Virus record (IMG/VR): IMGVR_UViG_3300013121_000002
Coordinates: 43,976-107,975 of that record
Strand: one strand, 5' to 3'
From: a virus
Taxonomy: Duplodnaviria; Heunggongvirae; Uroviricota; Caudoviricetes
Length of the DNA: 64,000 bases
Positions 26,217 to 40,208 of this stretch are shown here, one piece after another. The position numbers and the translations under genes were made by a program. The notes under the pieces are model-generated. The model did not search any database and was not told the DNA's origin. It saw nothing but the letters and a program-made list of their open reading frames with translations. Position 1 is the stretch's first letter, and each line of letters starts with the position of its first letter.

Positions 26217-27242
26217 CTACAAGCCGACCAAATTGCGAACGAACGCAGCACCGTCATCCGCCTGCAAATCACCGGGGTCTTTGACCCCATCAGGCAGCGT
26301 AACCAACCGAACACGCACCGGCAAAAAACGATCCGCCAGCCGCAACGCCCGCATCTGCGCATCGGCGTCGAGACACATGACCACCCGCGGAAAATGCTCA
26401 AGCCGCATCAGCGCCGCCGCCTGATCGTCCGACACGTTGAGGCCAAACAAACAGGTGCCGTACACACCGAGGTCGTGCCCCAGCGCCGACACCCGCAGCG
26501 CGTCGAACGGTCCTTCGCAAATCACCAACACCCGCGGCTTCTCGACAGCCGTCAGCACCTGCATCCCGAGCAGGGTCGAGCCCGGCGCAGCCAATGCCAC
26601 CGTCTCATCCTCGAACCGGGATTCCACCGGCAGCGTCTTGTAGCGCAACTCCTCATCGCGGAGGATCGTCCGCCCAGTCCATGACACCAGCCGACCCCAC
26701 GGATCGTACACCGGGATAATCACCCGGTAGCGATAGGGTCCGCGCAGGGCGTAACGCAGGTCATAGGCCCGCGCCATCCAGTTGATTTGCTTTACGGTAT
26801 AGCCACGCTGCCGCAGGTAATCCCAAAACGGATCGGCGAAACGCGAATCAGTATCGAGCGATTTGAACTCAGAGGGTAGCTCCAGCCGGGCCGGTCGCAG
26901 CCGCGACGCCGGGGCCGCGCCGAGCGCGACGCGCATCTGCATCGCGAAATCATCGTCGGTCGGCATACTGGCGGTGCCCTCGCCAGCCAACTCGGCCGCA
27001 CGCTCGAAAGAGCAGTGCAGCAAGGCTTGGATGAGCCGGGTCGCCTTGCGACCCCGGTGCGCCGCGTTGCGCCAGCAGTGCCACCCGGCACCACTCAGCG
27101 CGATGCTCATGTGCTCGGACTCGTCAGCGGGTCCGCAGAAGGGACAATGCACCGAGATATGCCCGCGGCCGGTGTTGGGGCCACGCGTAACGAATGGCAC
27201 ACCATGGCGCTCTAAGAACTTGGGCCAGTCGAGCGTAGCCAT
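26217..27242 (-). CDS. DnaG-like DNA primase (CHC2 zinc finger + Toprim)
   Basis: Zinc finger VHCPFCGPADESEHMSIALSGAGWHCWRNAAH. Toprim-like VLVICEGPFDALRV. Confidence 0.7.
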   Translation of the reverse strand: MATLDWPKFLERHGVPFVTRGPNTGRGHISVHCPFCGPADESEHMSIALSGAGWHCWRNAAHRGRKATRLIQALLHCSFERAAELAGEGTASMPTDDDFAMQMRVALGAAPASRLRPARLELPSEFKSLDTDSRFADPFWDYLRQRGYTVKQINWMARAYDLRYALRGPYRYRVIIPVYDPWGRLVSWTGRTILRDEELRYKTLPVESRFEDETVALAAPGSTLLGMQVLTAVEKPRVLVICEGPFDALRVSALGHDLGVYGTCLFGLNVSDDQAAALMRLEHFPRVVMCLDADAQMRALRLADRFLPVRVRLVTLPDGVKDPGDLQADDGAAFVRNLVGL

Positions 27243-27243
27243 T

Positions 27244-28818
27244 TCATTTCAGCATGGTCGAGGGGTCGTGCAGCAGCGCCTTAATGAGGTCGCGCCCCTC
27301 CTTGTGGTAATCGCGAATTTTCTGATCCACCGTGCCGAGGGTGATGAGATCGTACTGGAACACCCGACGCTCCTGACCCTGCCGCCACAGCCGACGTTCC
27401 GCCTGCTCGCGGTCGATGGCTGATACCGGGCTCTCATAGAACACCCCGTAGTTGGCGATCTGGAGCCCGTCGATGGAATAGGCACCAACCTTGTTGTTGA
27501 CCACGCACACCTGACACCGCGGATCGTCGGCGAACCGGGCCAACGATCCCCGCACATCCTTCGTGCCGGACCATAACCAAACCGAATCAAATCCCTCCTT
27601 GCGCAACCGCTCGACGATCAGACGACCACTGAACGTGAACTCATAAAAGATCACCATCTTGCGGTCGAACGGTAATTCGCTGACGAGATCGAGCAACAGT
27701 TCGAGCTTCGGATTATCCTTGAACGCGACCTCGACGCGCTCACCGGCCACCTCATCGGCATCGCGATCCGCCTCGGCAATACGAAAACTCAGGAAGCCCG
27801 ACGACAACTGCCGCATCCGCAGGAACGCGTTCTCCATCGCCTTCAGGTTCCCGCGCGCCGCCATGATCTCATCGACGACCTTGCGGTAGTAGCTCTGCGC
27901 TTCCTGCGGCAGACGCACCGTCTCGGCAATCTCCGACCGACGAGGCAGGTCGAGCAGTTCATCCATTTCGTAGGTGATCGAACGGTGCTGTAGAAGCCGG
28001 GCCAGTTTCTTTTTCTTGCGCTTGTCAAACGATTTGACCGCAAAGCCAAGGTCGTTTTTCGATTCGGTGAAGAACGCCTGCTGGAACAGCGACAACGAGC
28101 CGCCGAGCGATGCGCCCTCGTCGATCAGGTACTGCTGCGACCACAGCAGTGACGGGTCACGCCCGAACGGACGCCCAGCCAGCGCGTAACGAATGTCGAT
28201 GTCGTAGGTCAGCATCAACAGCATCTTGTTCGTTAGCGACTTAATGCCAACCCGCGTTGACTCATCAAACACCACCGCCCCGACGCCAGCACCAAGCTCC
28301 TCGACCAGCACCGGGTTGAGCCGCATCTTGACCTTACCCTTGCGCCGAACCCGCTCACTGACCATCGCCACCGCACCGGGATAGGTAACAAAAACGATGC
28401 CATCACCGAAGGCGCGCAGCTTGGCCCACTTCTGCTTCGACGAAGCACCATCGAGCGTGACGTAGGGAATGCCAATATTGTACTGGGCGTGCTGACGCTC
28501 CCACGTCGGGAACGCCTTGTCCGAGATAACGAATACAATGGCGCGCTTGATGCGCCCGATCTGGAACCAGTAGCGCAGCAACTCCAGCGACAGGAGGCTC
28601 TTGCCACCGCCCATGTCGATCCAGAACGAAAATTGGGGGTAGGCCACGCCGAGCAGAAAGCCCACCTTCTGGTGCAAGCGCAAGCCGGGCCACAGGTGCG
28701 GAGCCGGACGCATCCGGGCGAGCGCAGCGTCAATCTCGCGCCGCGGCAAATCCTTCATCCAGCGATGGTCGTCCCGCTCCTGCCGCAGGAACTGCTCAAT
28801 CGCAATAGCCGGGATCAC
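27244..28818 (-). CDS. SNF2/DEAD-like superfamily 2 helicase
   Basis: Motif I DMGGGKS. Motif II VVFDESTRV. C-terminal helicase domain with motif VI QAERRLWRQGQ. Confidence 0.75.
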   Translation of the reverse strand: MIPAIAIEQFLRQERDDHRWMKDLPRREIDAALARMRPAPHLWPGLRLHQKVGFLLGVAYPQFSFWIDMGGGKSLLSLELLRYWFQIGRIKRAIVFVISDKAFPTWERQHAQYNIGIPYVTLDGASSKQKWAKLRAFGDGIVFVTYPGAVAMVSERVRRKGKVKMRLNPVLVEELGAGVGAVVFDESTRVGIKSLTNKMLLMLTYDIDIRYALAGRPFGRDPSLLWSQQYLIDEGASLGGSLSLFQQAFFTESKNDLGFAVKSFDKRKKKKLARLLQHRSITYEMDELLDLPRRSEIAETVRLPQEAQSYYRKVVDEIMAARGNLKAMENAFLRMRQLSSGFLSFRIAEADRDADEVAGERVEVAFKDNPKLELLLDLVSELPFDRKMVIFYEFTFSGRLIVERLRKEGFDSVWLWSGTKDVRGSLARFADDPRCQVCVVNNKVGAYSIDGLQIANYGVFYESPVSAIDREQAERRLWRQGQERRVFQYDLITLGTVDQKIRDYHKEGRDLIKALLHDPSTMLK

Positions 28819-28825
28819 AGAGCTA

Positions 28826-30313
28826 TCATTCCTCGTCGGCAGCGCCGCCGCCCGGCTGTCCGGTGCGAGCCTGCATCAGCGACCAGTAGGTATCCGACAC
28901 CGGGGCCGACTGGACAACATACTGCCCTAGCCCATACGCCTGCGAAATCAAAATCGACTCATGGAACGGCGGCGCATTACGCGCGAACTCGACGTTGATG
29001 CGCGCCAGCCCCAGCATCTTCTCCTCGGCGGTCTGGCTGTAGGTGAGCACGTTGTCGGCGATATTCAGCTTGCGCACGTCCTCGGCCACCATGTCGCCAC
29101 GCGTCCGCTTGGCATTCAGGCTCGACCGATTTGATTGCGTCGGGAACACCCCGGCCATGTTGCGCTCGGCGCAAACGCCGCGCAGCCCTTCATAGATGGT
29201 GCCGAGGCTCATGCGATAGTTGGCGGCATCGACCTTCATCAGGTCGGGGTAATCGACGATCAGGATCGTCGGCACGAACCGCGCCGTGACCTCAAGGTGA
29301 TCGAGATAAGAGCGTAGCAGGTCGAGGGTGAGCGTGCCAGTCGGGAACTGCTTGATGAGGAGACGGCCAAGGTTGAACTCCTCGACGCGCTGGCGCAGCG
29401 CATCCTCGGCGGCCGGGTCGGCGAAATTGATTTCGGGATGACGTGTCTCGATCCGCCAATCGCGGAGCTTGAACTGCTCCTTGTCGTCAAAGAGGAGCAC
29501 CGTCTGGACCACATCCTCCTGCCAGCCGGATGCAAACAAACTCTGATAGTAGCGCCCGGCGATGCGCATTTCGTCGAACTCAAGGCTAATGTGCAGGATG
29601 CGCTCGCGCTGCATCAGGCCGCGGCGGCCGACGTGAACGCAGAACCACGACTTACCCGAGCCCTTCGGTGCGAGGTAGAGCAGCATTTCCTTCGGCGTCG
29701 GGCCGATGCCGAAGCGGTCGAGTTCCTTGATGCCGAGCGACAGCGACGCGTGCGCCGTGCTTTCGAGAAAGGTAAGCGTCCGCGCCGTATCGTTTAGCTG
29801 GACGCCTGTGCTGAACGTGTTGGTGCCCAGCCCCTCGAACCGCAACCCCTTGCTAACGATATTGATGATGTCGTCAGTGCGGTTTTCATCCCCTTGCGAC
29901 CAACGCTCCATCACGTCGGTCAGCATCGTCTTGACGTACTGGTCCTTGAGGAAATGCTGGGTCCGGTTGGCTATGTACTCGGCGTTCAGGCCGCGGGTCA
30001 GGCTGACGAGATCACCGAGAAACTTGCGCAGGCGCGGCCCCTGTTTGTCGTTTGGCGACAGCGACGAACCAAACAGGTCATCAACGTGAACGAGGCCCGG
30101 CGCACGCCGGTACATTTTTCGATAGTTGAGGAGCTTCGCCGCGACCTCGCGGTACAGGCCATCATCGAAGTCGCGTTCGCGAACCTGCCCGGCGATGATG
30201 CCTCCCCACTGCTCATCGACGAGCAGCGCCGCCAAGATCGACTCCTGTAGGGACGCCGCCAGATTGGTCGGCTCATCCGAATCGCCGCCAGAAAGCCGTC
30301 GCCGCTCGACCAC
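28826..30313 (-). CDS. DnaB-like replicative helicase (N-terminus MVERRRLSGG)
   Basis: Walker A LAPKGSGKSWF and a RecA-fold C-terminal domain. Size 495 aa. Lies next to the primase. Confidence 0.7.
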   Translation of the reverse strand: MVERRRLSGGDSDEPTNLAASLQESILAALLVDEQWGGIIAGQVRERDFDDGLYREVAAKLLNYRKMYRRAPGLVHVDDLFGSSLSPNDKQGPRLRKFLGDLVSLTRGLNAEYIANRTQHFLKDQYVKTMLTDVMERWSQGDENRTDDIINIVSKGLRFEGLGTNTFSTGVQLNDTARTLTFLESTAHASLSLGIKELDRFGIGPTPKEMLLYLAPKGSGKSWFCVHVGRRGLMQRERILHISLEFDEMRIAGRYYQSLFASGWQEDVVQTVLLFDDKEQFKLRDWRIETRHPEINFADPAAEDALRQRVEEFNLGRLLIKQFPTGTLTLDLLRSYLDHLEVTARFVPTILIVDYPDLMKVDAANYRMSLGTIYEGLRGVCAERNMAGVFPTQSNRSSLNAKRTRGDMVAEDVRKLNIADNVLTYSQTAEEKMLGLARINVEFARNAPPFHESILISQAYGLGQYVVQSAPVSDTYWSLMQARTGQPGGGAADEE

Positions 30314-30517
30314 CGCCTGCTCCCCTGATCCATGAAGGACGACAGTGGTAGCACAACGCCGAATGAAAAAAGAAGGCCCCCCGGATGCCCTCGCGGGGAG
30401 CCTTCACTTTTGCCCACCTATCACATACCCCAGCCGGTGGCCTCCGGGGCAGAGCGTGCCACACTAGTGAGTGGCACACCCTATGTGGTGATGACGCTAA
30501 CGAATGCAAGAGGGAGA

Positions 30518-30548
30518 CATAACGAAACGGGGAGGCTTTCGCCTCCCC
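30518..30548 (-). terminator. Terminator-like conserved hairpin module (type 1, copy 0)
   Basis: GGGGAGGC-GAAA-GCCUCCCC followed by GUUUCGUUAUGU on the minus strand. Lies in the leader of the DnaB gene. Confidence 0.45.
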
Positions 30549-30632
30549 GCTCGACCATGCCCCACCTTGGCTCACCGCACCGGACCCGGCCGCGCCACAC
30601 CTCGGCTTGCCTTGCCACACCTCGAAAATTGA

Positions 30633-31322
30633 TTAGGCTTTCGCGACCTTGAACGAGGTCACGCCGAACCGACCGTAAGTCGGACGGAAATCGGCGACGC
30701 CGACGAGACGACCGGCCTGTTCGATCACCTCGCGCAACGTAGAAGGCTCGATGTATTCCGGCAGAAGAACCATGATCTGGAACGTCGCCTTCCACCCGGA
30801 GCGCAGCGCCGGGCGAACACGAGTGACGCCGTTCCGCTGGATCATCACACGACGCCTGTCGAGGTAGTCCCAAGTCTTGAGCCCGGTCGGAGCGAGTTCA
30901 GTCAGCGAGACGACACCCGCCTTGAACAGGTCCATCGCCGACTTGCGCGGCGACCGCGGGTCTTGCCGGAACTTCGCGGCGGCGATAATCGCCTGCCGCA
31001 GATACTCGCCGGGAACGCTAATGAGCCCCCTGTCATTGCGGTACAGGTAGCTCTCCACATCGTCGGTTTTCTTCGCCTTGGAGTTCTTGGCGGCGACGCT
31101 CTTGGCCTCGACCGCCTCGTTGTTCCAGCGATGGAACAGGAGATCGCTGGTGCCGGTGATCTCGACCGTGGCGGTGTACGGAATCCCCGCCTCAATGGTA
31201 TTTGCCCCACCATTGGTGGGTTCGCTGACATGATCGACGCGCTTGCGCCGTGAACCACTTGCTTCCACGTTAAAACCTCCATTTGCCATCGCGATCACAC
31301 TCGGGATTGAGCACTGTCGCAT
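30633..31322 (-). CDS. Hypothetical protein
   Basis: 229-aa ORF. Possible start at MANGGFNVEASG. Confidence 0.45.
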   Translation of the reverse strand: MRQCSIPSVIAMANGGFNVEASGSRRKRVDHVSEPTNGGANTIEAGIPYTATVEITGTSDLLFHRWNNEAVEAKSVAAKNSKAKKTDDVESYLYRNDRGLISVPGEYLRQAIIAAAKFRQDPRSPRKSAMDLFKAGVVSLTELAPTGLKTWDYLDRRRVMIQRNGVTRVRPALRSGWKATFQIMVLLPEYIEPSTLREVIEQAGRLVGVADFRPTYGRFGVTSFKVAKA

Positions 31323-31332
31323 CTAGGCGAAT

Positions 31333-31364
31333 AATCAAATGGAGTGTTCGTTAGCGTTTGTCAA
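31333..31364 (-). promoter_or_regulatory. Promoter-like TTGACA-N17-CATTTG element directly downstream of the terminator
   Basis: Minus-strand reading: TTGACAaacgctaacgaacactcCATTTG. Confidence 0.3.
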
Positions 31365-31366
31365 CT

Positions 31367-31397
31367 ACAAACGAAACGGGGAGGCTTTCGCCTCCCC
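31367..31397 (-). terminator. Intrinsic terminator, type 1, copy 1
   Basis: GGGGAGGCGAAAGCCUCCCC + GUUUCGUUUGU on the minus strand. Confidence 0.5.
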
Positions 31398-31517
31398 GCT
31401 CGACCATACCCTGCCCGGCCGCGCCATACCTCACCGAACCGCGCCCCACCTTAGCCCTCCGCACCGTGCCCGACCGTGCCTTGCCATGCCAAACCTCACC
31501 CGACCTCACCATGCCTC

Positions 31518-31553
31518 TAATAAAAAGGGCGGCTGCCTTTCGACAACCGCCCA
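31518..31553 (-). terminator. Intrinsic terminator, type 2
   Basis: Minus strand: GGGCGGUUGUCGAAAGGCAGCCGCCC followed by UUUUUAUUA. Confidence 0.6.
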
Positions 31554-31646
31554 CCATGCCTTACCCGACCGAACCCTCACCTTCGCCCGGCCGTACCGGA
31601 CCCAACCTAGCCTCACCAGACGCAAATCGTCACAAGCCGGTGCCAA

Positions 31647-31678
31647 ACCAAATGGATGCTTCGTTAGCGTTTGTCAAC
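31647..31678 (-). promoter_or_regulatory. Promoter-like TTGACA-N17-CATTTG element
   Basis: Minus strand: TTGACAaacgctaacgaagcatcCATTTG. Confidence 0.3.
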
Positions 31679-31699
31679 CACAAACGAAACGACCTCACG

Positions 31700-31744
31700 T
31701 CCATTACAAAAAGAGCGAGGAGGCTTTCGCCAACTCGCTCTTTC
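31700..31744 (-). terminator. Intrinsic terminator, degenerate type 1 copy
   Basis: Minus strand: GAGCGAGUUGGCGAAAGCCUCCUCGCUC + UUUUU. Confidence 0.5.
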
Positions 31745-31784
31745 CGTTCAAAATGAGGTAACACTATGAGGTACCGCCTCACCG

Positions 31785-31817
31785 CTCAAATGGATGGTTC
31801 GTTAGCGGTTTGTCAAC
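31785..31817 (-). promoter_or_regulatory. Promoter-like TTGACA-N17-CATTTG element
   Basis: Minus strand: TTGACAaaccgctaacgaaccatcCATTTG. Confidence 0.3.
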
Positions 31818-31818
31818 C

Positions 31819-31849
31819 ACAAACGAAACGGGGAGGCTTTCGCCTCCCC
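31819..31849 (-). terminator. Intrinsic terminator, type 1, copy 3
   Basis: Same hairpin + GUUUCGUUUGU. Confidence 0.5.
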
Positions 31850-31995
31850 GCTCGACCATAGCTCACCGCGCCTGACCTAGCCTAGCCAGACCCCACCCGA
31901 CCACACCGTACCAAACCAAACCTGACCACACCCTACCGGACCCGACCGGACCATGCCGGACCTCACACTACCTAGCCCGACCTCACCCAGCCTAT

Positions 31996-32030
31996 AATAA
32001 AAAGGGCGGCTGCCTTTCGACAACCGCCCA
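31996..32030 (-). terminator. Intrinsic terminator, type 2, second copy
   Basis: GGGCGG...CCGCCC hairpin + UUUUUAUUAUAGG. Confidence 0.6.
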
Positions 32031-32103
32031 CCATGCCTTACCCGACCGAACCGGACCACACCACGCCTAAGCGTGCCGCTCCTGACCTTACCGGGGTGCA
32101 AAC

Positions 32104-32135
32104 CAAAATAAATACATCGTTAAGTGTTTGTCAAC
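32104..32135 (-). promoter_or_regulatory. Promoter-like TTGACA-N17-TTATTT element
   Basis: Minus strand: TTGACAaacacttaacgatgtatTTATTT. Confidence 0.3.
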
Positions 32136-32147
32136 AGCACAAACGAA

Positions 32148-32179
32148 ACGAGGAGGCTTTCGCCTCCCCGCTCGACCAT
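32148..32179 (-). terminator. Intrinsic terminator, type 1, copy 4 (variant)
   Basis: GGGGAGGCGAAAGCCUCCUC + GUUUCGUUUGUGCUG. Confidence 0.45.
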
Positions 32180-32273
32180 GCCCTGCCCGGCCGCGCCATA
32201 CCTCACCGAACCGCGCCCCACCTTGCCGTAGCCAACCTTACCGCAGCGTCCACTTAAACCAAAATCAAACTAC

Positions 32274-32831
32274 CTAGTCAACTCGGTCGCCAATCGTTTG
32301 GTCCCGAACTTGCGCTAACCAACCGAGAAGGAACGAACCAACATAGCCGGGAAAGGCACGATCCAGAGCCTCGGGAACAAAAGGCACGGCACGCAGCATT
32401 GATTTCAAACCAACCGGCTCATTTCTTATATCCTGCCAATTCGCCAGCGCCCCGGCGACCGCGCGACCAAGCAGGAGCCGCTGACCCTGATTGAGCGGAC
32501 GCCCGGCATGTTCAAGGAGGTGCTTCCTGACACTACGCGAGTGCTCCGGGTATTCCGGCGAGATCGACTTCACCGGAACGAACCGGCCGCTATCGGTGAG
32601 CAGGCCGCGCCGTTTCAGTTCATGGTAGATGCCCTCCAGCAGCCAGTCGATGGTGTTGCTGGTGCCGTCAGCCGCGTCGGTCGGCAGCGCCGTCCCGGCG
32701 TCGGCGATCACAGTGCCGCCAAGGCTCGCCCCGGAGATCAGCGCCCGGACCCGGTTCCTGACCTCGCGCAGTTGGGTCTGGCTCATGGTCGGCAGCGCCA
32801 CAAGCAGGGTCTGAAACTCGGCGTCTTTCAC
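32274..32831 (-). CDS. Hypothetical protein
   Basis: 185-aa ORF divergent from the 32983 gene. Confidence 0.45.
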   Translation of the reverse strand: MKDAEFQTLLVALPTMSQTQLREVRNRVRALISGASLGGTVIADAGTALPTDAADGTSNTIDWLLEGIYHELKRRGLLTDSGRFVPVKSISPEYPEHSRSVRKHLLEHAGRPLNQGQRLLLGRAVAGALANWQDIRNEPVGLKSMLRAVPFVPEALDRAFPGYVGSFLLGWLAQVRDQTIGDRVD

Positions 32832-32877
32832 CTATTGATTTCCCTATACAGGTTACGCCATATGACGAACTGCTAAC

Positions 32878-32962
32878 CAAACGCCATAGGCATAGTGCCG
32901 TAGGTAGGTTAGCAACTTGCTAACCAAACGCCATAGGCATGGTGCCGTAGGCAGGTTAGCAA
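32878..32962. promoter_or_regulatory. Two tandem ~44-bp palindromic operator-like repeats in a divergent promoter region
   Basis: ttgctaaccaaacgccataggcat(a/g)gtgccgtagg(t/c)aggttagcaa twice. Each has a 9-bp inverted repeat TTGCTAACC/GGTTAGCAA. Confidence 0.55.
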
Positions 32963-32982
32963 AACAAGAAAGGAGCCACTAG

Positions 32983-33453
32983 GTGGCTACTGCAAGAAAG
33001 CCGAAGGCTGCGCCTCAAAACGCAACGCCGGAACCGAAGCCCACCGCCAAGCCGCATCGGCAGCAGGTGGACAAATCGCGGATCATTCCGCTCCCGACCA
33101 TCCTCGAACGCAAGATCAAGTTCGGGCCAACGCTCAACGATCATGTCGAGCGTGTTCACGTCGCTCTGTACGCCAAGAGCGACGAATACCGCAAGTTCCT
33201 GTCGGCCGTCTATGACGACGACGCGGTGGAAGGCTCCCTGCGCGCCGACAACCTCGAACTCGCCCGGCTCATCCGCGACTACGCTGCGGAGAACGGCATG
33301 ACCGAAGTCGTCAAAAAGCCGGACGGCGGACAGCGCACCAAGGAATCCATCGTGAAGGCGCTCAACGTGGTGCTTCGGCGCTACGGCATCGCGCGGGAAA
33401 TCCGGCGCAACACCCTCGGCGGCGAGTACGTCGGCACCGGCAACGGCGACTAA
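32983..33453 (+). CDS. Hypothetical basic protein
   Basis: 156-aa ORF with a Lys/Pro-rich N-terminus. A GGAG RBS sits at 32970. Confidence 0.5.
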   Translation: MATARKPKAAPQNATPEPKPTAKPHRQQVDKSRIIPLPTILERKIKFGPTLNDHVERVHVALYAKSDEYRKFLSAVYDDDAVEGSLRADNLELARLIRDYAAENGMTEVVKKPDGGQRTKESIVKALNVVLRRYGIAREIRRNTLGGEYVGTGNGD

Positions 33454-33462
33454 CGGAAACTG

Positions 33463-34740
33463 GTGAGGGGTGCTAGGCTCCCCTCACCTTTCCCCCAAGC
33501 GGATTTGAACGAAATGACGCAGCAAGTCGCGCGAATCGAGAACCTTCCGAAGCTCATCGAACAGGCCGCCAACACGCTGGCGCAAGCCACGAACTACGCG
33601 CAGGTACTCGATGCCCACAAGAAGGCGACTGTGGCCTACGACGCCGCCAAGCTGGCTGCCCGGCTGGCCGACAAGAAAGACGCTTACGACAAGATCATCG
33701 CTGCCTGCCGCAAGGTGCAGGCTGATGCGCTGGTGATCGCGGCGCAGGCTGAAATCCGCCTCGCTGACGAATACGACGCCGCCAAGGCGCGAGGTGAAGT
33801 TGCCGGTCATGGTGGTGGTCGAAATTTCAAGAGGGATAACGCCCCGCTTGAAAAAACAAAGCTCGCAGACATTGGCCTGACCCCGAAGCAGATGAGCGAT
33901 GCCCGCGCCGTCCGTGACGCCGAGAAGGCCGATCCGGGTGTTGTCGAGCGCACCGTGCGCAAGCGCATATCCGAAGGACATGAGCCCACCAAGGCTGCCG
34001 TCAAGCAGGCGGTGAAGGCCACCAACACCCACAAGCCGGTGGAACGCAAGCGCGCCTCCGTAGAGCGCAAGCGCAGCACCCCCGAGCCCGACAAAAAGCA
34101 GGAGCCAAACGTGGCGACCACCTCCGTCAACAACAGAATGAATATCGACCTCACGGTGTGGGCGCGCTTCGTTGAACTTGCAAAGAAACTGAACACGAAC
34201 GCAGCCGATCTGAGCGGTAGGATCGTTACAGAGTTCACCGACAAGGGTGAGCCCGAGATCGACGCGACCACGTTGTCCATGTCGGCACAACAGAAGCTCG
34301 AAACTGCCATCCGCCAGCACAAGCGCAAGCTCGACGAGAGCTTCGCCGAGGCTGTCCGGCTTGCCCTCGTGGCCGAGCGCGACCAATTCCTCGGCGACAC
34401 CATCAAGCGTTTGCAGGAGCGCGAGCGCCACGCCAACGCCGTCCTCCACAACAACGCCGGGATCATGCCGCGTTCCGAGTTCCGGCTGATCCTCGCTGCG
34501 CTGAGCCCGGATTCGCGCCGCAATTTCTCTGACGAAAGGATCGCTGCGGCGTTCAACGCGTTCAAGCAGTACGAACCAATTCTGGTAGCCCGAGCCAAGG
34601 ACGATCCGCTGCCGACAATCACGCCTGCTGATCTGACAGCCATGCGCGCTGCCGCCGAAGCTGCCCGCAAGGCCAAGCGGAAGTCGTCGGCGGAAGCGAA
34701 GGCCAACAAAGCTAACGGCAGCAGCGTTAGTGTGTCCTGA
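33463..34740 (+). CDS. Hypothetical Ala/Lys-rich coiled-coil protein (start possibly at Met 33514)
   Basis: 425-aa ORF. The antisense ORFs in this region are Arg-rich artefacts. Confidence 0.5.
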   Translation: MRGARLPSPFPQADLNEMTQQVARIENLPKLIEQAANTLAQATNYAQVLDAHKKATVAYDAAKLAARLADKKDAYDKIIAACRKVQADALVIAAQAEIRLADEYDAAKARGEVAGHGGGRNFKRDNAPLEKTKLADIGLTPKQMSDARAVRDAEKADPGVVERTVRKRISEGHEPTKAAVKQAVKATNTHKPVERKRASVERKRSTPEPDKKQEPNVATTSVNNRMNIDLTVWARFVELAKKLNTNAADLSGRIVTEFTDKGEPEIDATTLSMSAQQKLETAIRQHKRKLDESFAEAVRLALVAERDQFLGDTIKRLQERERHANAVLHNNAGIMPRSEFRLILAALSPDSRRNFSDERIAAAFNAFKQYEPILVARAKDDPLPTITPADLTAMRAAAEAARKAKRKSSAEAKANKANGSSVSVS

Positions 34741-35051
34741 TGATCTCTATGCGAAACAAAATCCTGACAGTCAAGGTTCGTTACTATTTCTATGAGCTAC
34801 TCAGTGACGCAGCCTTCCTGCGCTTGATGGCCTCAAATTACAACGAAGATTCCGTCACCGGCAATCGCATGTTCGACCGGGCTCGCGCCGTCGATATGAT
34901 AAAAGCACGAGCCAGTGTTGTGGACGACCATTTCACGATGGACACCCGCGAGTGGGACATCTATCGCTGTTTGATTAGGATCGCGCGGTATGAAGGTTTC
35001 ATTACAAAAGTCAAGCACACCGCAGGCCCCAATCCCGGAGTATTTGTTTGA
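34740..35051 (+). CDS. Hypothetical protein in a lower-GC moron-like segment
   Basis: 103 aa. Local GC is clearly lower than its surroundings and it has unusual Tyr/Phe-rich composition. Confidence 0.45.
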   Translation: MISMRNKILTVKVRYYFYELLSDAAFLRLMASNYNEDSVTGNRMFDRARAVDMIKARASVVDDHFTMDTREWDIYRCLIRIARYEGFITKVKHTAGPNPGVFV

Positions 35052-35084
35052 ACCCGAAGTCGGAGTTATCCCGGATAACTCCAT

Positions 35085-35275
35085 CTAGCCACACATCCCG
35101 TTCGAGCCGCGCTGGCCCCATGCGATGTCGGTGAGGTCGCCGACCGGCACCAACGGCACGAGGTCGGCGCACTCGACGGCAATCATTTCCGGCACGCCTA
35201 GCTCAAGATCGGGCTCCGGGGCAAAGTACCAATCGTCGTCAGCACCCCAATGGTTCCAGTGATCCAGATCGGTCA
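35085..35275 (-). CDS. Small acidic Trp-rich protein (start MTDLDHWNHW)
   Basis: RBS GGAGCTAACGAAATG. The track ORF 35085..35387 extends upstream, but the N-terminal part is unlikely. Confidence 0.4.
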
Positions 35276-35280
35276 TTTCG

Positions 35281-35520
35281 TTAGCTCCTTGAGTGCTGCC
35301 TGATCCATTCCTTGGCGGCCACCGGGTCAGCAACCACCGCGACAACTCGTTGGGGCGGAATCTTGGCACGGATGGCGATCCTACCATCAGGCTGCTTCTC
35401 CGTCAGGAACCAGCGGTGCTCCTTCGCCATCCGCTGCATTTCGTTATCTTCCCGCTGCCGGTGTTTCTGTTCCAGCGGCTGCATCTTCCGTGCTCGACGC
35501 TTGCTAATGATCTGCGACAA
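35281..35520 (-). CDS. Hypothetical basic protein
   Basis: 79-aa ORF, Arg/Gln-rich. Confidence 0.4.
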   Translation of the reverse strand: MSQIISKRRARKMQPLEQKHRQREDNEMQRMAKEHRWFLTEKQPDGRIAIRAKIPPQRVVAVVADPVAAKEWIRQHSRS

Positions 35521-36267
35521 CTCCCCACCTCAACTGCTGGTAGCAACCCTAGCGTGTGATAGCTAGGAACCTTTGGTTTTGCACGCCCTCGCGCCCCTCC
35601 GGGTCGCTCGTTCTCTGGCAGCATCACTCACTCGACGCCCTGCGGGCGCTCGTTCGCTGGATCAAGGGGTAGGATGAAGTAGAGCACACTGACGGCCCGT
35701 TAGGGGCCGTCAGGTGTTGCGTAGGGTATAGGAAGTTAGCGTCCCACGATTGGATTGTCGGACTGTTCCCGGTGCGAAATGAATGCTCTGTGGGAACACG
35801 AGGGCGGTTAGGCTGAATACCCCCTACCGATGCTGATCTTCTAGCGCCACCCCAAGCCTGCGAATCCAACCACAGGATCAGGGCTCTCGGGCTCATTTAA
35901 GCCGAGGTCATTTGGTGTGCTGCCATGCTCTTGGCGGTATTCCGGGAGTTCCCCACCCGCCTTGAAGCGGTGACGACCGGAGCGCAACAGGGCGCGAGCT
36001 ATGTTGCCGCGCCGGACTTGCAAGGTGGGGGTGCTTTGCCCTATTTTCAGGGCTCTACACCGCGCTCCTCGGCAAAGGACTTCGCGGTCTTTCGGCCCAC
36101 GGTTTCGCGACCGTGGGCCGAGTCATTTCTGGCACAGCCCGATCCCGGTTGGCAAGAAGGCTCCGCGCAGGCCGCCAGAAGGCCCGTAGGACGCCAGAGC
36201 GCGGATTGAGCCCTACAGCCCAGTGCTGCTACTCTCCCGGCCCTGTAGGAGGCCGTAGGGACCAACG
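35521..36267. promoter_or_regulatory. About 740-bp ORF-free, hairpin-rich divergent intergenic region (leader of the NusG-like operon, possible ncRNA)
   Basis: No credible ORF on either strand. Hairpins include GACGGCCC-GUUA-GGGCCGUC and CACGGU-UUCGCG-ACCGUG. Confidence 0.35.
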
Positions 36268-36795
36268 ATGATCGAGCGGCGGCGACCCAGCCGATGGATC
36301 GTGTGCAGCACGCAGCCGCAGCGTGAGCGTTGGGCTGCCGACAACGCCCAGCGCCAAGGCTACGACACCTACCTGCCCATGATCCGCACCGAGGTCGTCG
36401 AGCGCGGCGTCGCCTCGCTCCGGGTCCGGCCGCTGTTCCCGCGCTACCTGTTCGTCCACATCACCAATGAGCAATGGCGCTCGCTGACCGGCACGTTCGG
36501 CGTGGCGTCGATCATCATGGGCGACAACGGTCGCCCTGCCACGCTGCCCGAGATCGCCATCGACCAGCTAAGGGCGCGCGAGCGCGACGGATACGTCGTG
36601 CTGCCCCGCGCCGAGGAGATCGCCCTGACGCCCGGACAGGCCGTCCGGGTGCTCGCCGGGCCGTTCGAGGGTACGGTCGGCGTGTACGTCGGCATGGGGC
36701 CTGCGGAGCGCGAGCGCGTGCTGCTGGACCTGCTCGGCCGCAAAACGACCGTGCTCGTCAGCCCGGACAACATCGCAGGGGAGAATGACACATGA
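36268..36795 (+). CDS. NusG/RfaH-family transcription antiterminator-like protein (NGN + KOW)
   Basis: NGN-like N-domain: WIVCSTQPQRERWAADNAQRQGYDTYLPMI...PLFPRYLFV. KOW-like C-domain: LTPGQAVRVLAGPFEGTVGVYVGM. Confidence 0.55.
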   Translation: MIERRRPSRWIVCSTQPQRERWAADNAQRQGYDTYLPMIRTEVVERGVASLRVRPLFPRYLFVHITNEQWRSLTGTFGVASIIMGDNGRPATLPEIAIDQLRARERDGYVVLPRAEEIALTPGQAVRVLAGPFEGTVGVYVGMGPAERERVLLDLLGRKTTVLVSPDNIAGENDT

Positions 36796-38272: not shown

Positions 38273-40208
38273 AGAGGTCGATGATCGACCCGGACGGCGT
38301 CTTGCGGATGGTCGTGACCGACTTGAACCGTTGCGTTTCCGGCGTCTGGTGGTCGATGAGGAAAACCTGCCGAGCCAGCCGCTCGGCTCGATCCGCCAGC
38401 AGTTCAATAAGATCGGCAATCCCCTCCTCGGACAGCCCGCGCGTCGGCTCGTCGAAGATTTCGAGGTTGACCGTCACCCCGGCGTAATTGAGCAGCACTT
38501 CGCTCAACGCCATCGCGCCGACGAGACGCAGCCGCTGACCCTCGCCGCCGCTGAATGCGTCAAGGGGCACAGAGCGTCGGCCCTGTGCCCCTACCACACC
38601 ACGCCGTGCCATGCCGTACCCCGCCGTACCTTGGCGTGTCTCGCCCGGCCTCACCACGTCGATCTCATATGGGGTAATGCTTACGTTAATACCACGTTGG
38701 ATCGAACCAGAGGCCGTCTCGCGCTCGACCGCATACTCGATCTGCCAACCAAGCAGGCCGACACTCTCCAGCACCGAGTTCGTCGTCATCGTCAACTGAG
38801 CCAACACATCCTCCATGATGAACAGGCGCACGTCCTTGAAGCCTTTGACCCAAAACCGGGTCCGGGCGATCCGCTGCTCCAGTTTCGCCAGTTCGTCGTT
38901 CGCCGCATCGATCTTGTCGTCGAGCCCGGCGAGCTTCTGCTTGAGCGTGACGATCTGCGTCTGGTGAGGATTGGTTTCCTTCTCGGCCGCTTCGATCTGC
39001 CGGGTCAAAGCCGCGACTTCGCCTTGCAGATTGACATGGTGCGGCCGGGCGACGTTGAGTTGCGTCAGCGCCGCCGCCTCGGCGTCGAGGTACTGGCGAT
39101 TGGCCTCCTCGATCCGGTCGAGCACCTTATGCGCCGCACGGTGGTCGGCGTCGAGCGAATCGAGCGACGCCGTCAGCTTAACGATCTCCTCCTCCACCTC
39201 CGCGCGCTGCCGATGCAGTTCGTCCCGGTGCTTGGACAAGTCCGCCTTCTTGGTCGGCTGGCCGCAGGTTGGACACGTCCCGCCCGCCTTGAGCCCGGCG
39301 ATCTCGCGGTCGAGGCGTTTCATGTCGGACTTCATTCCGGCGAGCTTCACGTCGGCGCGGTCGTGCTCCGAACGCGCATCGCTGAGCAAGCCGCGGTATT
39401 TGGTGATGTCATCCCGCGTCGTCTTGAGTTGCAGCCCGGCGCTTTCCAGCGCGAGTTCGGCGTCGGCGACGCGGCGGTCGAGCTTGGCCAGTTCCTCCCG
39501 TGCCGCCACGAGCCGCGTGTTGAAGCCGTCGAGCCGGGCGGCGTGTTTCTCCTGCCACGCGGTGCTGTCCTCGCGCGCCGTGTCCAGCAGCGATTGTAGC
39601 TGACGCTGCGTGCCCTTCAGTCCGGTAAGCTCACCCTCAACCGTTGCCCGGTCATGGTCGAGGTTGGTGGCGACCCGGCTGGCCGTTGCCGACAGCGCAT
39701 CCCAGCGGTCGAGTTGCAGCACCTCGCTGAACAGTTCCATCTTCTCGCGCGGCTGGAGATCGAAGAACAGCGGGCGACCCTGACCAAACAGGATTGCGTG
39801 CGAGAACAGGTCGAAGCTCAGGCCGATGGTGGCTGCCGCATCGACCGCCGAATCCTTACCGTTGATAGTGAATGAATTGGGGTTCGAGCACCGTTCGAAC
39901 GTGACGTGCTCGCCGTCGATCTCGACCAGCACCATGACACGCGAGGATTTGCCCTGCGCGCTGTCCCGCGGCTTCACGTCAGGGTTCTTGAGCCCGGAGA
40001 TCGTCTTGCCGTACAGGCACCACGTCAGCGCGTTCCAGATGGTTGATTTGCCGGAACCGTTCGCGCCGAGTCGCGGCTCGACCTCGTTGATGCCGCGGAT
40101 GAAGTGAAGGCCGCCGCGCTCGTCGTCCGGCTCGATCTGAAAGGTATGCGGCCCGACACCAAACGATCCGAAGCTGGCAAGCTCGATCTTAATGAAATGA
40201 ATCTCCAC
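38271..40208 (-). CDS. SbcC/Rad50-like ATPase
   Basis: Walker A GANGSGKST. Long coiled coils with a CPTCGQP zinc hook. ABC signature/D-loop FSGGEGQRLRLVGAMAL...IFDEP. Confidence 0.75.
   Translation of the reverse strand: MEIHFIKIELASFGSFGVGPHTFQIEPDDERGGLHFIRGINEVEPRLGANGSGKSTIWNALTWCLYGKTISGLKNPDVKPRDSAQGKSSRVMVLVEIDGEHVTFERCSNPNSFTINGKDSAVDAAATIGLSFDLFSHAILFGQGRPLFFDLQPREKMELFSEVLQLDRWDALSATASRVATNLDHDRATVEGELTGLKGTQRQLQSLLDTAREDSTAWQEKHAARLDGFNTRLVAAREELAKLDRRVADAELALESAGLQLKTTRDDITKYRGLLSDARSEHDRADVKLAGMKSDMKRLDREIAGLKAGGTCPTCGQPTKKADLSKHRDELHRQRAEVEEEIVKLTASLDSLDADHRAAHKVLDRIEEANRQYLDAEAAALTQLNVARPHHVNLQGEVAALTRQIEAAEKETNPHQTQIVTLKQKLAGLDDKIDAANDELAKLEQRIARTRFWVKGFKDVRLFIMEDVLAQLTMTTNSVLESVGLLGWQIEYAVERETASGSIQRGINVSITPYEIDVVRPGETRQGTAGYGMARRGVVGAQGRRSVPLDAFSGGEGQRLRLVGAMALSEVLLNYAGVTVNLEIFDEPTRGLSEEGIADLIELLADRAERLARQVFLIDHQTPETQRFKSVTTIRKTPSGSIIDL

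What the first reader, a model, noticed from the sequence alone, without database searches (positions are those of the whole stretch)
31400..32110. Strand-asymmetric spacers with 3-nt periodicity (CA/ACC-rich plus strand, GG-every-5-nt minus strand) between the conserved hairpins
The spacers read (plus strand) as ...cac ccg acc aca ccg tac caa acc aaa cct gac cac acc cta ccg gac ccg acc gga cca... with near-perfect period-3 CC dinucleotides. On the minus-strand (transcribed) sense they form GG-N2-3-GG runs (GGUCCGGUCGGGUCCGGUAGGGUGUGGUCAGGUUUGGUUUGGUACGGUGUGG). This composition is unlike the rest of the window. It would suit G-quadruplex formation or a multi-site sponge for an RNA-binding protein recognising GGU/GG motifs. 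The periodicity could instead be a relic of Pro/Thr-rich coding sequence.
Basis: seen in the sequence. Interest (0 to 1): 0.55.

Follow-up and report, generated by a model that had tools for sequence, protein, structure and literature searches.

The report
Phage VIPR guide-RNA repeat arrays
The odd C-rich "spacers" are arrays of five-base GGYNN repeats that encode the guide RNAs of a phage VIPR system, a CRISPR-like RNA-guided DNA-silencing system first described in 2026, so this is a new and divergent example of a known kind.

Summary
The composition anomaly is real, but its period is 5 nt, not 3 (z = 19.2 against -0.7 for shuffles). On the minus strand the 31323-32273 gap holds five arrays of GGYNN units. 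A sixth lies in the 3' UTR of the next gene. Each array ends in one of two conserved hairpin terminators.

That next gene (30633-31289, minus strand) is a homologue of the SUSP1 Vipr protein. The evidence is a PDB 36pp profile match (E = 5e-12), conserved GGY-reading residues, and a predicted Cas7/Csm3-like RAMP fold. In 80 related viral contigs, GGYNN arrays flank the homologue on its own strand (219 arrays against 2). Position 3 is a pyrimidine in 91% of units, and positions 4-5 are random. No other neighbouring gene is conserved.

This matches the VIPR systems described in two 2026 preprints. Vipr polymerises on the GGY motifs, and the NN pairs read double-stranded DNA with one base skipped per pair.

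Applying that rule gave no self-targets and two candidate foreign targets. Both are in frame, with the skipped base at the wobble position. One is a serine-recombinase motif and the other is a phage replication gene in small integrated elements.

Verdict: a new member of a known kind. A seventh array is inserted in frame in the sbcC-like gene; this is unexplained.

The parts
30633..31289 (-). vipr gene. It encodes a 218-aa Vipr (ancestral RAMP) protein. The longest ORF would start at 31322; the JGI gene call P0001 starts at MANGGFN, 31289.
   Evidence: Profile of 40 homologues against PDB: 36pp_D 'SUSP1 Vipr protein', E = 4.9e-12. tblastn hits phiSUSP1 gene agp039. SUSP1 residues H17, K33, E71, K82, R138, D177 and R179 are invariant, and W178 becomes F. 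AF2 model pLDDT 80.5. Top Foldseek PDB hits are all Csm3/Cas7 RAMPs, E about 1e-6. PHROG 4652, no Pfam match.
30552..30621 (-). vrRNA F. 14 GGYNN units in the 3' UTR of vipr, running into a T1-type tail.
   Evidence: Register parse. The array starts 12 nt after the vipr stop codon.
30525..30552 (-). T1 tail/terminator of vrRNA F (GAGCGGGGAGGC-GAAA-GCCTCCCCGTTT, then a U-rich run).
   Evidence: Terminator scan. Exact copy of the T1 hairpin.
31334..31364 (-). Conserved promoter-like element TTGACAAACGCTAACGAAnnnTCCATTTG upstream of vipr. Near-copies lie at 31647-31677, 31786-31816 and 32105-32134.
   Evidence: Repeat families D5/D6. Pattern search gave 3 matches against 0.01 expected. The 32134 copy scores 10/12 as a sigma-70-type promoter. 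Promoter function is inferred.
31401..31515 (-). vrRNA array E, 23 units in one register. E1 is units 1-12 (31456-31515), followed by one degenerate unit GCTAA (31451-31455). E2 is units 14-23, and its sequence is duplicated in array A.
   Evidence: The E1 NN string ATxGAxCGxGAxTTxATxAAxACxCGxACxGCxGG matches serine-recombinase genes.
31374..31401 (-). T1 tail/terminator of array E.
   Evidence: Hairpin fold z = -4.1.
31551..31617 (-). vrRNA D. 13 units, with two 1-nt register slips.
31527..31552 (-). T2 tail/terminator of D (GGGCGGTTGTC-GAAA-GGCAGCCGCCC, then UUUUUAUUA). It also contains a weak promoter-like TTGTCG-N18-TATTAG that would start array E.
   Evidence: Fold z = -4.6. The embedded promoter is inferred from the twin copy at 31994-32023, which the scan reported.
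31705..31785 (-). Short transcription unit with no repeat array, lying between a promoter-like element and a hairpin terminator (arms 31710-31743).
   Evidence: Inverted repeat I4, terminator scan, fold z = -3.65. Its role is unknown.
31853..31992 (-). vrRNA array C. 28 units in one register, with degenerate units 6 and 27. Units 17-26 (31863-31912) are the segment with a candidate target.
   Evidence: Target hits in L116 and L117.
31826..31853 (-). T1 tail/terminator of array C.
32028..32092 (-). vrRNA B. 13 units, downstream of the best sigma-70-like promoter (32105-32134). The predicted RNA is about 100 nt.
32004..32029 (-). T2 tail/terminator of B.
32173..32242 (-). vrRNA A. 14 units in the 3' UTR of the upstream 185-aa ORF. 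Its last 10 units are 98% identical to the end of array E.
   Evidence: (family D2).
32146..32173 (-). T1 tail/terminator of A, with one mismatch in the stem.
38564..38655 (-). Array G. 13 GGYNN-type units (38591-38655, two of them degenerate) plus a GC-rich hairpin (38564-38591). It is inserted in frame and in sense orientation in the SbcC-like ATPase gene (38271-40208).
   Evidence: Sequence and translation. The 27-aa insertion is absent from 9 aligned homologues. No array was found in 16 homologous loci. Fold z = -4.05. Whether it is a working vrRNA is unknown.

Best explanation
The C-rich 'spacers' are the DNA for the guide RNAs (vrRNAs) of a VIPR (Viral Interference Programmable Repeat) system carried by this phage.

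Transcribed from the minus strand, each array gives an RNA made of GGYNN pentamers that ends in a conserved hairpin tail, which also acts as an intrinsic terminator. The adjacent gene (30633-31289) encodes Vipr, a small RAMP-fold protein.

By homology to the solved SUSP1 system, one Vipr protomer binds each repeat and buries the GGY bases, so the protein forms a helical filament along the RNA. The two variable bases of each repeat are left exposed. Read in series, they pair with double-stranded DNA that carries the same dinucleotides separated by one skipped base (NNxNNx...). The complex then sits on that DNA and blocks transcription.

The likely biological role is to silence genes of competing mobile elements in the same host. 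Because the skipped base falls on the codon wobble position, synonymous mutations in the target do not let it escape.

Shown here: the repeat anatomy, the Vipr homology and fold, the tight gene-array linkage across 80 loci, the absence of self-targets, and in-frame candidate targets.

Inferred from the two preprints, not tested here: RNA expression and processing, filament formation, DNA binding and silencing.
For: (1) Anatomy. There are seven arrays of GGYNN in strict 5-nt register, all on the minus strand. Six end in one of two conserved GAAA-tetraloop hairpins followed by U-runs. Period-5 z = 19.2.

(2) Protein. The adjacent ORF matches SUSP1 Vipr (PDB 36pp) at E = 4.9e-12 and hits the SUSP1 phage gene directly. 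The residues that the structure paper names as reading G1 (H17, D177), G2 (R138, W178) and Y3 (E71, R179), and as holding the DNA (K33, K82), are invariant or conservatively replaced (W to F). The AF2 model matches Csm3/Cas7 RAMPs.

(3) Linkage. In 80 IMG/VR loci holding a homologue (38-70% GC), 219 arrays lie on the gene's strand and 2 on the other. Position 3 is C or T in 91% of units, and positions 4 and 5 are near-uniform. No other neighbouring gene is shared.

(4) Positive control. The same detector recovers the published 1 upstream + 3 downstream vrRNAs in the SUSP1 locus.

(5) The code works in this clade. A vrRNA of related locus L041 matches the vipr G-loop codons of more than 40 other loci under the 1-skip rule, with up to 10 consecutive perfect units and the wobble base skipped. 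Skip-0 and skip-2 controls show nothing comparable.

(6) Window guides. None matches the window itself above the shuffled null. E1 matches the (I/V/F)ER(D/E)LIKTRTAE motif of small serine recombinases (best 23/24). These account for 6 of 10 exact database hits, representing 4 distinct sequences with different wobble bases. C units 17-26 match TVRGLYYQAE in a phrog_6247 gene of two integrated elements, which are 71% identical to each other and have different wobble bases.

(7) Literature. bioRxiv 10.64898/2026.04.26.720920 and 10.64898/2026.04.26.720927 define exactly this architecture and mechanism.
Against: There are no expression data, so promoters, RNA ends and processing are all inferred.

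Arrays C (28 units) and E (23 units) are longer than the 9-16 repeats reported for characterised vrRNAs. How or whether they are cut into separate guides is unknown.

The tails are plain hairpin terminators. The pseudoknot described for the SUSP1 clade was not found or tested.

No accessory (vap) gene could be identified. The upstream 185-aa ORF has no detectable homologue or domain.

The Vipr is only about 28-30% identical to the characterised SUSP1 protein. SUSP1 R39 and M72 are not conserved.

Target predictions rest on exact-match scans without shuffled-guide controls on the large databases. Each candidate target is effectively one independent event, and background hits do occur. Scans with segments of guides B, F and A/E2 and with the first ten units of E gave nothing convincing, and D and G were not scanned.
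Confidence: 0.9

Rival explanations
1. The arrays are bound by Vipr but do not act as DNA-targeting guides in this phage. They would instead titrate or autoregulate Vipr, or stabilise or terminate neighbouring transcripts. That makes them a protein 'sponge' or 3'-UTR element, closer to the first reader's idea.
For: Two arrays sit in 3' UTRs: A after the 185-aa ORF and F after vipr. One lies inside a coding gene. Most guide segments scanned gave no database target.
Against: NN positions are hypervariable while GGY is fixed across 227 arrays, which is the signature of information-carrying guides and not of a sponge. Two guide segments have in-frame, wobble-skipping matches in mobile-element genes. 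A related locus has a guide against rival vipr genes. The characterised homologues are guides.
Confidence: 0.06
2. The G-rich minus-strand RNA (or DNA) folds into two-tetrad G-quadruplexes that regulate transcription, RNA stability or replication.
For: GG every 5 nt can in principle form two-quartet G4s. Local 25-nt G4Hunter peaks reach 1.24-1.44 in arrays A, C, D and E.
Against: Array means are only 0.70-0.99, and comparable peaks are scattered across the whole GC-rich window. A G4 does not explain the conserved pyrimidine at position 3, the exact register over 140 nt, or the obligatory linkage to a RAMP gene on the same strand. In the solved homologue each GGY is sequestered by protein.
Confidence: 0.02
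3. The region is decayed or cryptic protein-coding sequence (Pro/Thr-rich on the plus strand), or a plain slippage-generated microsatellite with no function.
For: Plus-strand ORFs of 132-140 aa run across the arrays. The plus strand is rich in CC and ACC.
Against: There is no 3-nt periodicity (z = -0.7). A 5-nt unit cannot keep a reading frame. The units are not identical copies, as slippage would give, because NN is near-random. The architecture is conserved across phages of 38-70% GC that share no other neighbouring gene.
Confidence: 0.01
4. The C-rich plus strand and G-rich minus strand mark a Rho-loading (rut) site or an R-loop-primed replication origin in the replication module.
For: There is strong C over G skew on the plus strand. 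The region lies next to the DnaB-like helicase, SNF2 helicase and PolA genes. Promoters feed G-rich transcripts.
Against: In 80 related loci the arrays travel with vipr, not with any replication gene. The register and the position-3 pyrimidine are unexplained. No plus-strand transcription is expected to enter the region, since the flanking genes are on the minus strand.
Confidence: 0.01

Closest known systems
Type II VIPR system of Escherichia phage SUSP1 (Vipr, PDB 36pp, plus vrRNA1-4). bioRxiv 10.64898/2026.04.26.720920 and 10.64898/2026.04.26.720927.
   Same: A small (about 20 kDa) RAMP-fold Vipr with the same GGY-reading residues. Guide RNAs built of GGY/NN pentamers lie on the gene's strand both upstream and downstream, and each is capped by a conserved 3' tail. 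The locus is phage-borne and lies in the early/replication region. There is no self-targeting, and candidate targets are in frame with the wobble base skipped.
   Different: Only about 28-30% protein identity. W178 becomes F, R39 becomes A and M72 becomes Y. The tails are GAAA-tetraloop hairpin terminators of two types, not the SUSP1 pseudoknot. Two arrays have 23 and 28 units in one register, against 9-16. There is no recognisable vap1 neighbour. There are five arrays upstream and one downstream, against one upstream and three downstream. An extra array lies inside a coding gene.
Other VIPR types with 'staggered' or composite arrays (preprint fig. S18, legend text only).
   Same: Long uninterrupted in-register arrays that would hold more than one guide. 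Array E looks like a 12-unit guide, one degenerate unit and then a second guide.
   Different: The type of this clade could not be assigned because the figures and data tables are not available. Processing sites are unknown, and no hammerhead ribozymes or other Rfam families are present.
Class 1 CRISPR-Cas backbone (Cas7/Csm3/Cmr4 filament on crRNA).
   Same: The same protein fold: the top 50 structural matches are all CRISPR RAMP subunits (Csm/Cmr, type VII, Cas7-11). One protomer binds per fixed RNA step, and a thumb breaks the guide-target duplex periodically.
   Different: There is no CRISPR repeat-spacer array and no cas genes. The step is 5 nt, with 3 bases buried and 2 read, against 6 nt with 5 read. 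The guide information is non-contiguous. The target is double-stranded DNA read with a 1-nt skip. The system is encoded by a virus.
Phage DSL-LC04 (GenBank OR003939), gene WJZ48083.
   Same: It is the only close relative among 50,697 deposited phage genomes (65% identity). It has three GGYNN arrays directly upstream on the same strand.
   Different: The gene is annotated there as 'helix-turn-helix transcriptional regulator', and the arrays are not annotated. The genome context is entirely different.

Membership tests
VIPR system | A Vipr protein (a stand-alone RAMP homologue of about 20 kDa) is encoded in the locus. | tested here: met
   Profile against PDB 36pp_D 'SUSP1 Vipr protein': E = 4.9e-12 over residues 6-188 of 202. 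tblastn of P0001 hits the phiSUSP1/SUSP2 gene.
VIPR system | RAMP fold (RRM core, glycine-rich loop, thumb). | tested here: met
   AF2 model pLDDT 80.5, pTM 0.71. Foldseek against PDB gave 123 hits at E <= 0.001, and the top 50 are all CRISPR RAMP subunits (Csm/Cmr, type VII, Cas7-11), probability 1.00. The G-loop motif GVGDFRPTYGRF aligns to SUSP1 GVGDWRPRFGRF. The thumb was not inspected separately.
VIPR system | Residues that read G1, G2 and Y3 and clamp the DNA (SUSP1 H17, D177, R138, W178, E71, R179, K33, K82). | tested here: met
   H17, K33, E71, K82, R138, D177 and R179 are invariant in alignment A4, and W178 is replaced by F. R39 and M72 are not conserved.
VIPR system | vrRNA genes: tandem YNNGG/GGYNN repeats (at least 4 units) with fixed GGY and hypervariable NN, flanking vipr on its strand. 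| tested here: met
   Six arrays flank vipr on the minus strand. Across 227 arrays in the window plus 80 loci, position 3 is Y in 91% of units, and every base is at 20-30% at positions 4 and 5. In the 80 loci 219 arrays lie on the gene's strand against 2 on the other.
VIPR system | 9-16 repeats per vrRNA. | tested here: inconclusive
   A, B, D, F and G have 13-14 units. C has 28 and E has 23 in one register. E splits naturally into 12 + 1 degenerate + 10. RNA ends cannot be determined from sequence.
VIPR system | A conserved, structured 3' tail caps the repeat tract. | tested here: met
   There are two tail types, T1 (4 copies) and T2 (2 copies), each a stable hairpin with a GAAA loop and a U-run (z = -4.1 and -4.6). 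The pseudoknot of the SUSP1 clade was not found or tested. Tails differ widely among related loci.
VIPR system | An accessory vap gene next to vipr (typical, not universal). | tested here: not met
   No neighbour of the window vipr has a homologue in any of 80 related loci. No neighbour cluster is present in more than 13 of 81 loci, and the largest clusters appear to be spurious ORFs across the arrays themselves, judging from their strand, length and distance to vipr. The 185-aa upstream ORF has no family or PDB match. The preprint also reports stand-alone vipr genes.
VIPR system | NN dinucleotides specify foreign DNA with a 1-nt skip, with no self-targets. | tested here: inconclusive
   No self-match rises above the shuffled null. 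E1 matches serine recombinases at 22-23/24 and C units 17-26 match a phrog_6247 gene at 20/20, both in frame with the wobble base skipped. Clade-level support comes from the L041 guide. No shuffled-guide control was possible on the large collections, and segments of four other guides gave no hit.
VIPR system | vrRNAs are expressed, co-purify with Vipr, and the complex silences transcription. | not testable with these tools
   This needs sRNA-seq, pull-down and reporter assays.
CRISPR-Cas (class 1) | A repeat-spacer array of about 25-40-nt direct repeats, plus cas1/cas2 or an effector gene set. | tested here: not met
   Repeat analysis finds only the pentamer arrays and the tail/promoter modules. 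PADLOC and NCBIfam give no Cas hit for the Vipr or its upstream neighbour. Rfam finds no CRISPR direct repeat.
CsrA/RsmA-titrating sRNAs (RsmY/Z type) | Multiple GGA motifs presented in hairpin loops. | tested here: not met
   Position 3 is A in only 7% of units, and in 1 of 55 units in the window. There is no Rfam match.
G-quadruplex-forming element | G4Hunter score of about 1.2 or more over the element, or four or more G-runs of at least 3. | tested here: not met
   Array means are 0.70-0.99, with only local peaks up to 1.44. Windows scoring 1.2 or more occur in about 60 separate 100-nt bins of the window.

The most novel reading that the evidence does not exclude
vrRNA modules are themselves mobile and can be embedded in protein-coding genes. 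Array G (13 GGYNN units plus a hairpin) is a lineage-specific, in-frame, sense-strand insertion in the phage's own sbcC-like gene, 7 kb from vipr. It could be a guide released from an mRNA, or a handle by which Vipr binds and regulates the sbcC transcript. Neither of the two VIPR preprints, as far as their text was read here, describes such a layout. In the same direction, the vipr + array unit behaves as a self-contained cassette that hops between unrelated phage genomes. Rival VIPRs target each other's G-loop codons, and the attacker escapes self-targeting through an Arg CGN-to-AGA codon switch.
Probability: 0.2. Interest if true: 0.6.

Novelty: new member of a known kind. Interest (0 to 1): 0.5.

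Why it matters
VIPR was described only in 2026, as a viral, possibly pre-CRISPR form of RNA-guided DNA recognition that uses a non-contiguous code.

This window adds a divergent, uncultured example, about 30% identical to the characterised protein. Its protein search returned 7,108 homologues at E <= 0.001, none with a Pfam domain among the 120 listed.

It shows the code's signature in an independent clade: fixed GGY, free NN, and wobble-skipping in-frame targets. It also offers concrete, testable guide-target pairs, namely a serine-recombinase motif and a replication gene of small integrase-bearing elements. And it shows layouts not characterised so far: hairpin-terminator tails, 23-28-unit arrays, no accessory gene, and an array inside a coding gene.

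On the practical side, such arrays are easy to mistake for junk repeats, and the protein is misannotated in GenBank as an HTH regulator. A simple period-5 GG scan next to a PHROG 4652 gene would flag them.

Tried and rejected
- Rfam at a permissive threshold over 30400-33300 gave no family.
- blastn of the locus against 50,697 phage genomes gave only one weak hit, which turned out to lie in the vipr gene itself.
- Pfam, NCBIfam and PADLOC gave nothing for Vipr or the 185-aa neighbour. PDB gave nothing for the neighbour.
- The look-up of encoding contigs on P0001 found no record, so the sample of origin and the host remain unknown.
- Target scans with no hit: B units 1-9 (viral), B units 1-10 (metagenome), E units 1-10 (viral), E units 2-10 (viral), the A/E2 shared segment (viral), C units 7-16 (genomes).
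- F units 1-9 gave one hit (L081). It does not extend (2 of the next 10 bases) and is out of frame, so it was judged to be chance.
- Four of the ten E-pattern hits (L084, L089, L090, L091) also look like background.
- A test for convergent targeting found no other guide from the 80 loci hitting the recombinase genes. No other window guide hits L116 or L117 above the null.
- A search for a conserved accessory gene found none.
- A shared tail motif across the clade was sought, but tails are heterogeneous.
- Ideas considered early and dropped once the Vipr link appeared: TRAP-like (G/U)AG binding, CsrA sponge, Rho rut site, R-loop origin, a MITE-like mobile repeat.
Full report
**1. What is in the sequence**

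Window 31323-32273 is a non-coding gap between two minus-strand ORFs, 30633-31322 and 32274-32831. The plus strand of the gap is 38.5% C and 19.6% G, and individual stretches reach 42-52% C.

CC-dinucleotide autocorrelation is 3-4.5 times expectation at lags 5, 10, 15, 20 and 25, and is depleted at lag 3. Against 500 dinucleotide-preserving shuffles, period-5 power has z = 19.2 and period-3 power has z = -0.7.

Read on the minus strand, the region resolves into arrays of pentamers GGYNN held in one register:
- A: 32242-32173, 14 units.
- B: 32092-32028, 13 units.
- C: 31992-31853, 28 units.
- D: 31617-31551, 13 units with two 1-nt slips.
- E: 31515-31401, 23 units.

Each array runs straight into one of two conserved hairpins, both with GAAA loops and U-rich tails.
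- T1 is GAGCGGGGAGGC-GAAA-GCCTCCCCGTTTCGTT. It has four copies, including one at 30525-30552.
- T2 is GGGCGGTTGTC-GAAA-GGCAGCCGCCCTTTTTATTA. It has two copies.

Both score as minus-strand intrinsic terminators and fold far better than shuffles, with z = -4.1 and -4.6.

A conserved element, TTGACAAACGCTAACGAAnnnTCCATTTG, follows each of the three T1 copies inside the gap (A, C, E), and a fourth copy at 31647-31677 precedes array D. It precedes vrRNA B, a short array-less unit, vrRNA D and the downstream gene. The copy before B is a 10/12 sigma-70 match.

A sixth array, F (30621-30552), fills the 3' UTR of the downstream gene. In the whole 64-kb window, runs of this kind occur nowhere else except at 38569-38668, always on the same strand.

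**2. The neighbouring gene is the key**

The window is a phage replication region. It encodes a PolA with a UDG domain, a DnaB-like helicase, an SNF2 helicase and SbcCD.

The ORF just downstream of the arrays is 218 aa from MANGGFN. It has no Pfam domain and belongs to PHROG 4652, of unknown function.

A scan of IMG/VR returned 153 relatives, of which 80 were kept. At least 73 of those 80 have period-5 GG arrays immediately upstream and/or downstream of the gene and on its strand: 175 GG segments against 2 CC segments.

A finer parse gave 227 arrays in the window plus the 80 loci. Within the 80 loci, 219 lie on the gene's strand and 2 on the other. Position 3 is a pyrimidine in 91% of units. 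At positions 4 and 5 every base is at 20-30%.

These loci span 38-70% GC. None of the window's neighbouring genes has a homologue in any of them, and no neighbour family is shared by more than 13 of 81 loci. So the gene and the arrays travel together as a unit. That argues for a direct functional link.

**3. Identification**

A profile of 40 homologues hits one PDB sequence, 36pp 'SUSP1 Vipr protein', at E = 4.9e-12 over nearly its full length. tblastn of the window protein finds the same gene in phage SUSP1 and its relatives.

Two 2026 preprints (10.64898/2026.04.26.720920, also held as PMC13142463, and 10.64898/2026.04.26.720927) describe VIPR systems:
- Vipr is an about 20-kDa ancestral RAMP.
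- vrRNAs have 9-16 YNNGG repeats with conserved GGY and hypervariable NN, capped by a conserved 3' tail.
- Vipr forms a filament with one protomer per repeat and sequesters each GGY.
- The NN pairs base-pair with double-stranded DNA that carries the same dinucleotides separated by a single skipped base.
- The bound complex represses transcription.
- Natural targets are competing phages, satellites and prophages, usually in coding sequence with the skipped base at the wobble position.

The window matches this description point by point.

**4. Membership checks made here**

The residues the structure paper assigns to reading G1 (H17, D177), G2 (R138, W178) and Y3 (E71, R179), and to holding the target and non-target strands (K33, K82), are invariant across SUSP1 Vipr and seven members of the window's clade. 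The one exception is W178, which becomes F. R39 and M72 are not conserved.

An AlphaFold model (pLDDT 80.5) finds only CRISPR RAMP subunits at the top of a PDB fold search: Csm3 and other Csm/Cmr subunits, type VII Cas7 and Cas7-11, at E about 1e-6 and probability 1.0.

My array detector, run on the SUSP1 locus, recovers exactly the published layout of one array upstream and three downstream. The only close relative among deposited phages is DSL-LC04 (65% identity, annotated as an HTH regulator). It has three arrays upstream of its gene.

Features that differ from the characterised type II systems:
- Hairpin-terminator tails instead of a pseudoknot.
- Two arrays of 23 and 28 units.
- No recognisable accessory gene.
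- About 28-30% identity to SUSP1 Vipr.

The type of this clade within the seven published types could not be assigned, because the figures and tables are not available.

**5. Does the 1-nt-skip code apply in this clade?**

I extracted all 227 arrays and searched their NN strings against the window and the 80 loci with 0, 1 or 2 skipped bases.

Only the 1-skip search gave a large high-scoring cluster. A 15-unit vrRNA just downstream of vipr in locus L041 matches the coding strand of the conserved G-loop segment (GDFRPTYGRF) of vipr genes in more than 40 other loci. The match reaches 10 consecutive perfect units, with the skipped base at the wobble position. The window's own vipr scores 21/30.

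L041's own vipr scores lower (19/30). One reason is that its Arg codon in DFRP is AGA rather than CGN. [quoted passage not shown] It is independent support for the code in this clade.

**6. Targets of the window's own guides**

No guide matches the window itself above a shuffled-order null, as reported for other VIPRs.

Exact-pattern scans of the public collections were the only tool available, and they are capped.

*Guide E1.* This is the first 12 clean units of array E. The pattern for units 2-11 gave 1 hit in 185,579 reference genomes and 9 in the metagenome collection. Six of these ten lie in small serine-recombinase (resolvase, PF00239) genes, at the motif (I/V/F)ER(D/E)LIKTRTAE. All six are in frame with the skipped base at the wobble position. 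They represent four distinct sequences that differ at the wobble bases. The best matches 23 of 24 guide bases and stops at the degenerate 13th unit of the array. The closest annotated relatives are plasmid-borne recombinases of Alphaproteobacteria, which match at 17-21 of 24, against a null maximum of 17. The other four hits do not extend and are probably background.

*Guide C.* The pattern for units 18-26 gave two viral-contig hits. Both are in frame in homologous 291- and 294-aa genes (PHROG 6247, labelled 'DNA topoisomerase', 71% identical to each other). The motif is TVRGLYYQAE, the wobble bases differ, and unit 17, which was not in the search pattern, also matches. These genes sit in 12-15-kb, 65-66% GC proviral contigs. 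The contigs carry a large serine integrase, a ParB-methyltransferase and the PHROG 6247 gene; L117 also has a Prim-Pol primase and a sigma factor. No capsid genes were seen among the ORFs tested. The window has no homologue of either target.

These are candidate targets, not proven ones. Each is effectively a single independent event multiplied by family conservation. I could not run shuffled-guide controls on the large collections. Scans with segments of B, F and A/E2 and with the first ten units of E found nothing convincing. A different C segment, units 7-16, also found nothing. D and G were not scanned.

**7. Rivals**

- G-quadruplex: array G4Hunter means are 0.70-0.99, and similar local peaks occur throughout the window. 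A G4 does not explain the position-3 pyrimidine or the gene linkage.
- Coding relic or plain microsatellite: excluded by the lack of period 3, by near-random NN, and by conservation across unrelated genomes.
- Rho-loading site or R-loop origin: the arrays follow vipr, not the replication genes.
- Non-guide role: a role in titrating or regulating Vipr cannot be fully excluded for individual arrays, especially those in 3' UTRs.

**8. Unexplained extra**

Array G (38591-38655) and its hairpin (38564-38591) form an in-frame, sense-strand insertion of 27 codons in the SbcC-like gene, just upstream of the ABC signature motif. It is absent from nine aligned homologues, and no array was found in 16 homologous loci. 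Whether it yields a guide, lets Vipr act on the sbcC mRNA, or is an evolutionary accident is open.

**9. Verdict**

The RNA is a platform for a GG(Y)-binding protein. It is not a sponge, a G4 or a coding relic.

The feature is the vrRNA array set of a VIPR system, a new and divergent member of a recently described kind. Confidence in the identification is 0.9. The mechanism and biological role are inferred by homology and supported by in-silico targets.

Noticed in passing
window 38564-38675 (minus strand), inside the SbcC-like ORF 38271-40208: A vrRNA-like module (13 GGYNN units plus a GC-rich hairpin) sits in frame and in sense orientation inside the sbcC-like gene. It adds 27 residues just before the ABC signature motif. 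Nine aligned homologues lack the insertion, and 16 homologous loci have no array.
   Followed up: partly
L041:6597-6671 against the vipr genes of L020 (6522-6566), the window (30664-30708) and more than 40 other loci: [quoted passage not shown] The match reaches 10 perfect consecutive units with the wobble base skipped. Its own vipr scores lower, partly because it uses AGA instead of CGN for the Arg codon. This looks like VIPR-against-VIPR conflict with codon-level self-avoidance.
   Followed up: partly
window 31705-31816 (minus strand): One promoter-like element (31786-31816) drives a unit of about 80 nt that has a strong hairpin terminator (31710-31743) but no GGYNN array. It could be a decayed vrRNA or a different small RNA.
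   Followed up: no
window 31994-32023 and 31518-31546 (minus strand): The T2 terminator hairpins contain a sigma-70-like promoter match (TTGTCG-N18-TATTAT; the second copy ends TATTAG). It would start transcription exactly at the first unit of the next array (C or E). Terminator and promoter may overlap.
   Followed up: no
window 32870-32961: Two tandem copies of about 45 bp (CTGCTAACCAAACGCCATAGGCATAGTGCCGTAGGTAGGTTAGCA), each with CTAACC...GGTTAG inverted ends. They lie in the divergent region between the 185-aa minus-strand ORF and the plus-strand genes, and look like operators.
   Followed up: no
80 related loci (L001-L080) and window 24000-38000: vipr plus its arrays is the only conserved content. 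None of the window's neighbours has a homologue in any related locus, even though Vipr is 58-71% identical in these loci. This suggests a mobile cassette. Some loci carry uninterrupted in-register arrays of 40-98 units.
   Followed up: partly
L114 (GenBank OR003939, Phage DSL-LC04) 2477-3094: The only close deposited homologue of this Vipr is annotated as 'helix-turn-helix transcriptional regulator'. Its three upstream GGYNN arrays are unannotated. This is probably a misannotation.
   Followed up: partly
L116 and L117 (IMG/VR proviral contigs of 14.8 and 12.4 kb): The elements holding the candidate target of guide C carry a large serine integrase and a ParB-methyltransferase. L117 also has Prim-Pol and a sigma factor, and L116 an OmpR-type regulator. 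No capsid genes were seen among the ORFs tested. They may be satellites or small integrative elements.
   Followed up: partly
window 21192-23777 (minus strand): The family A DNA polymerase carries an N-terminal uracil-DNA-glycosylase-superfamily domain (PF03167) ahead of the 3'-5' exonuclease and polymerase domains.
   Followed up: no
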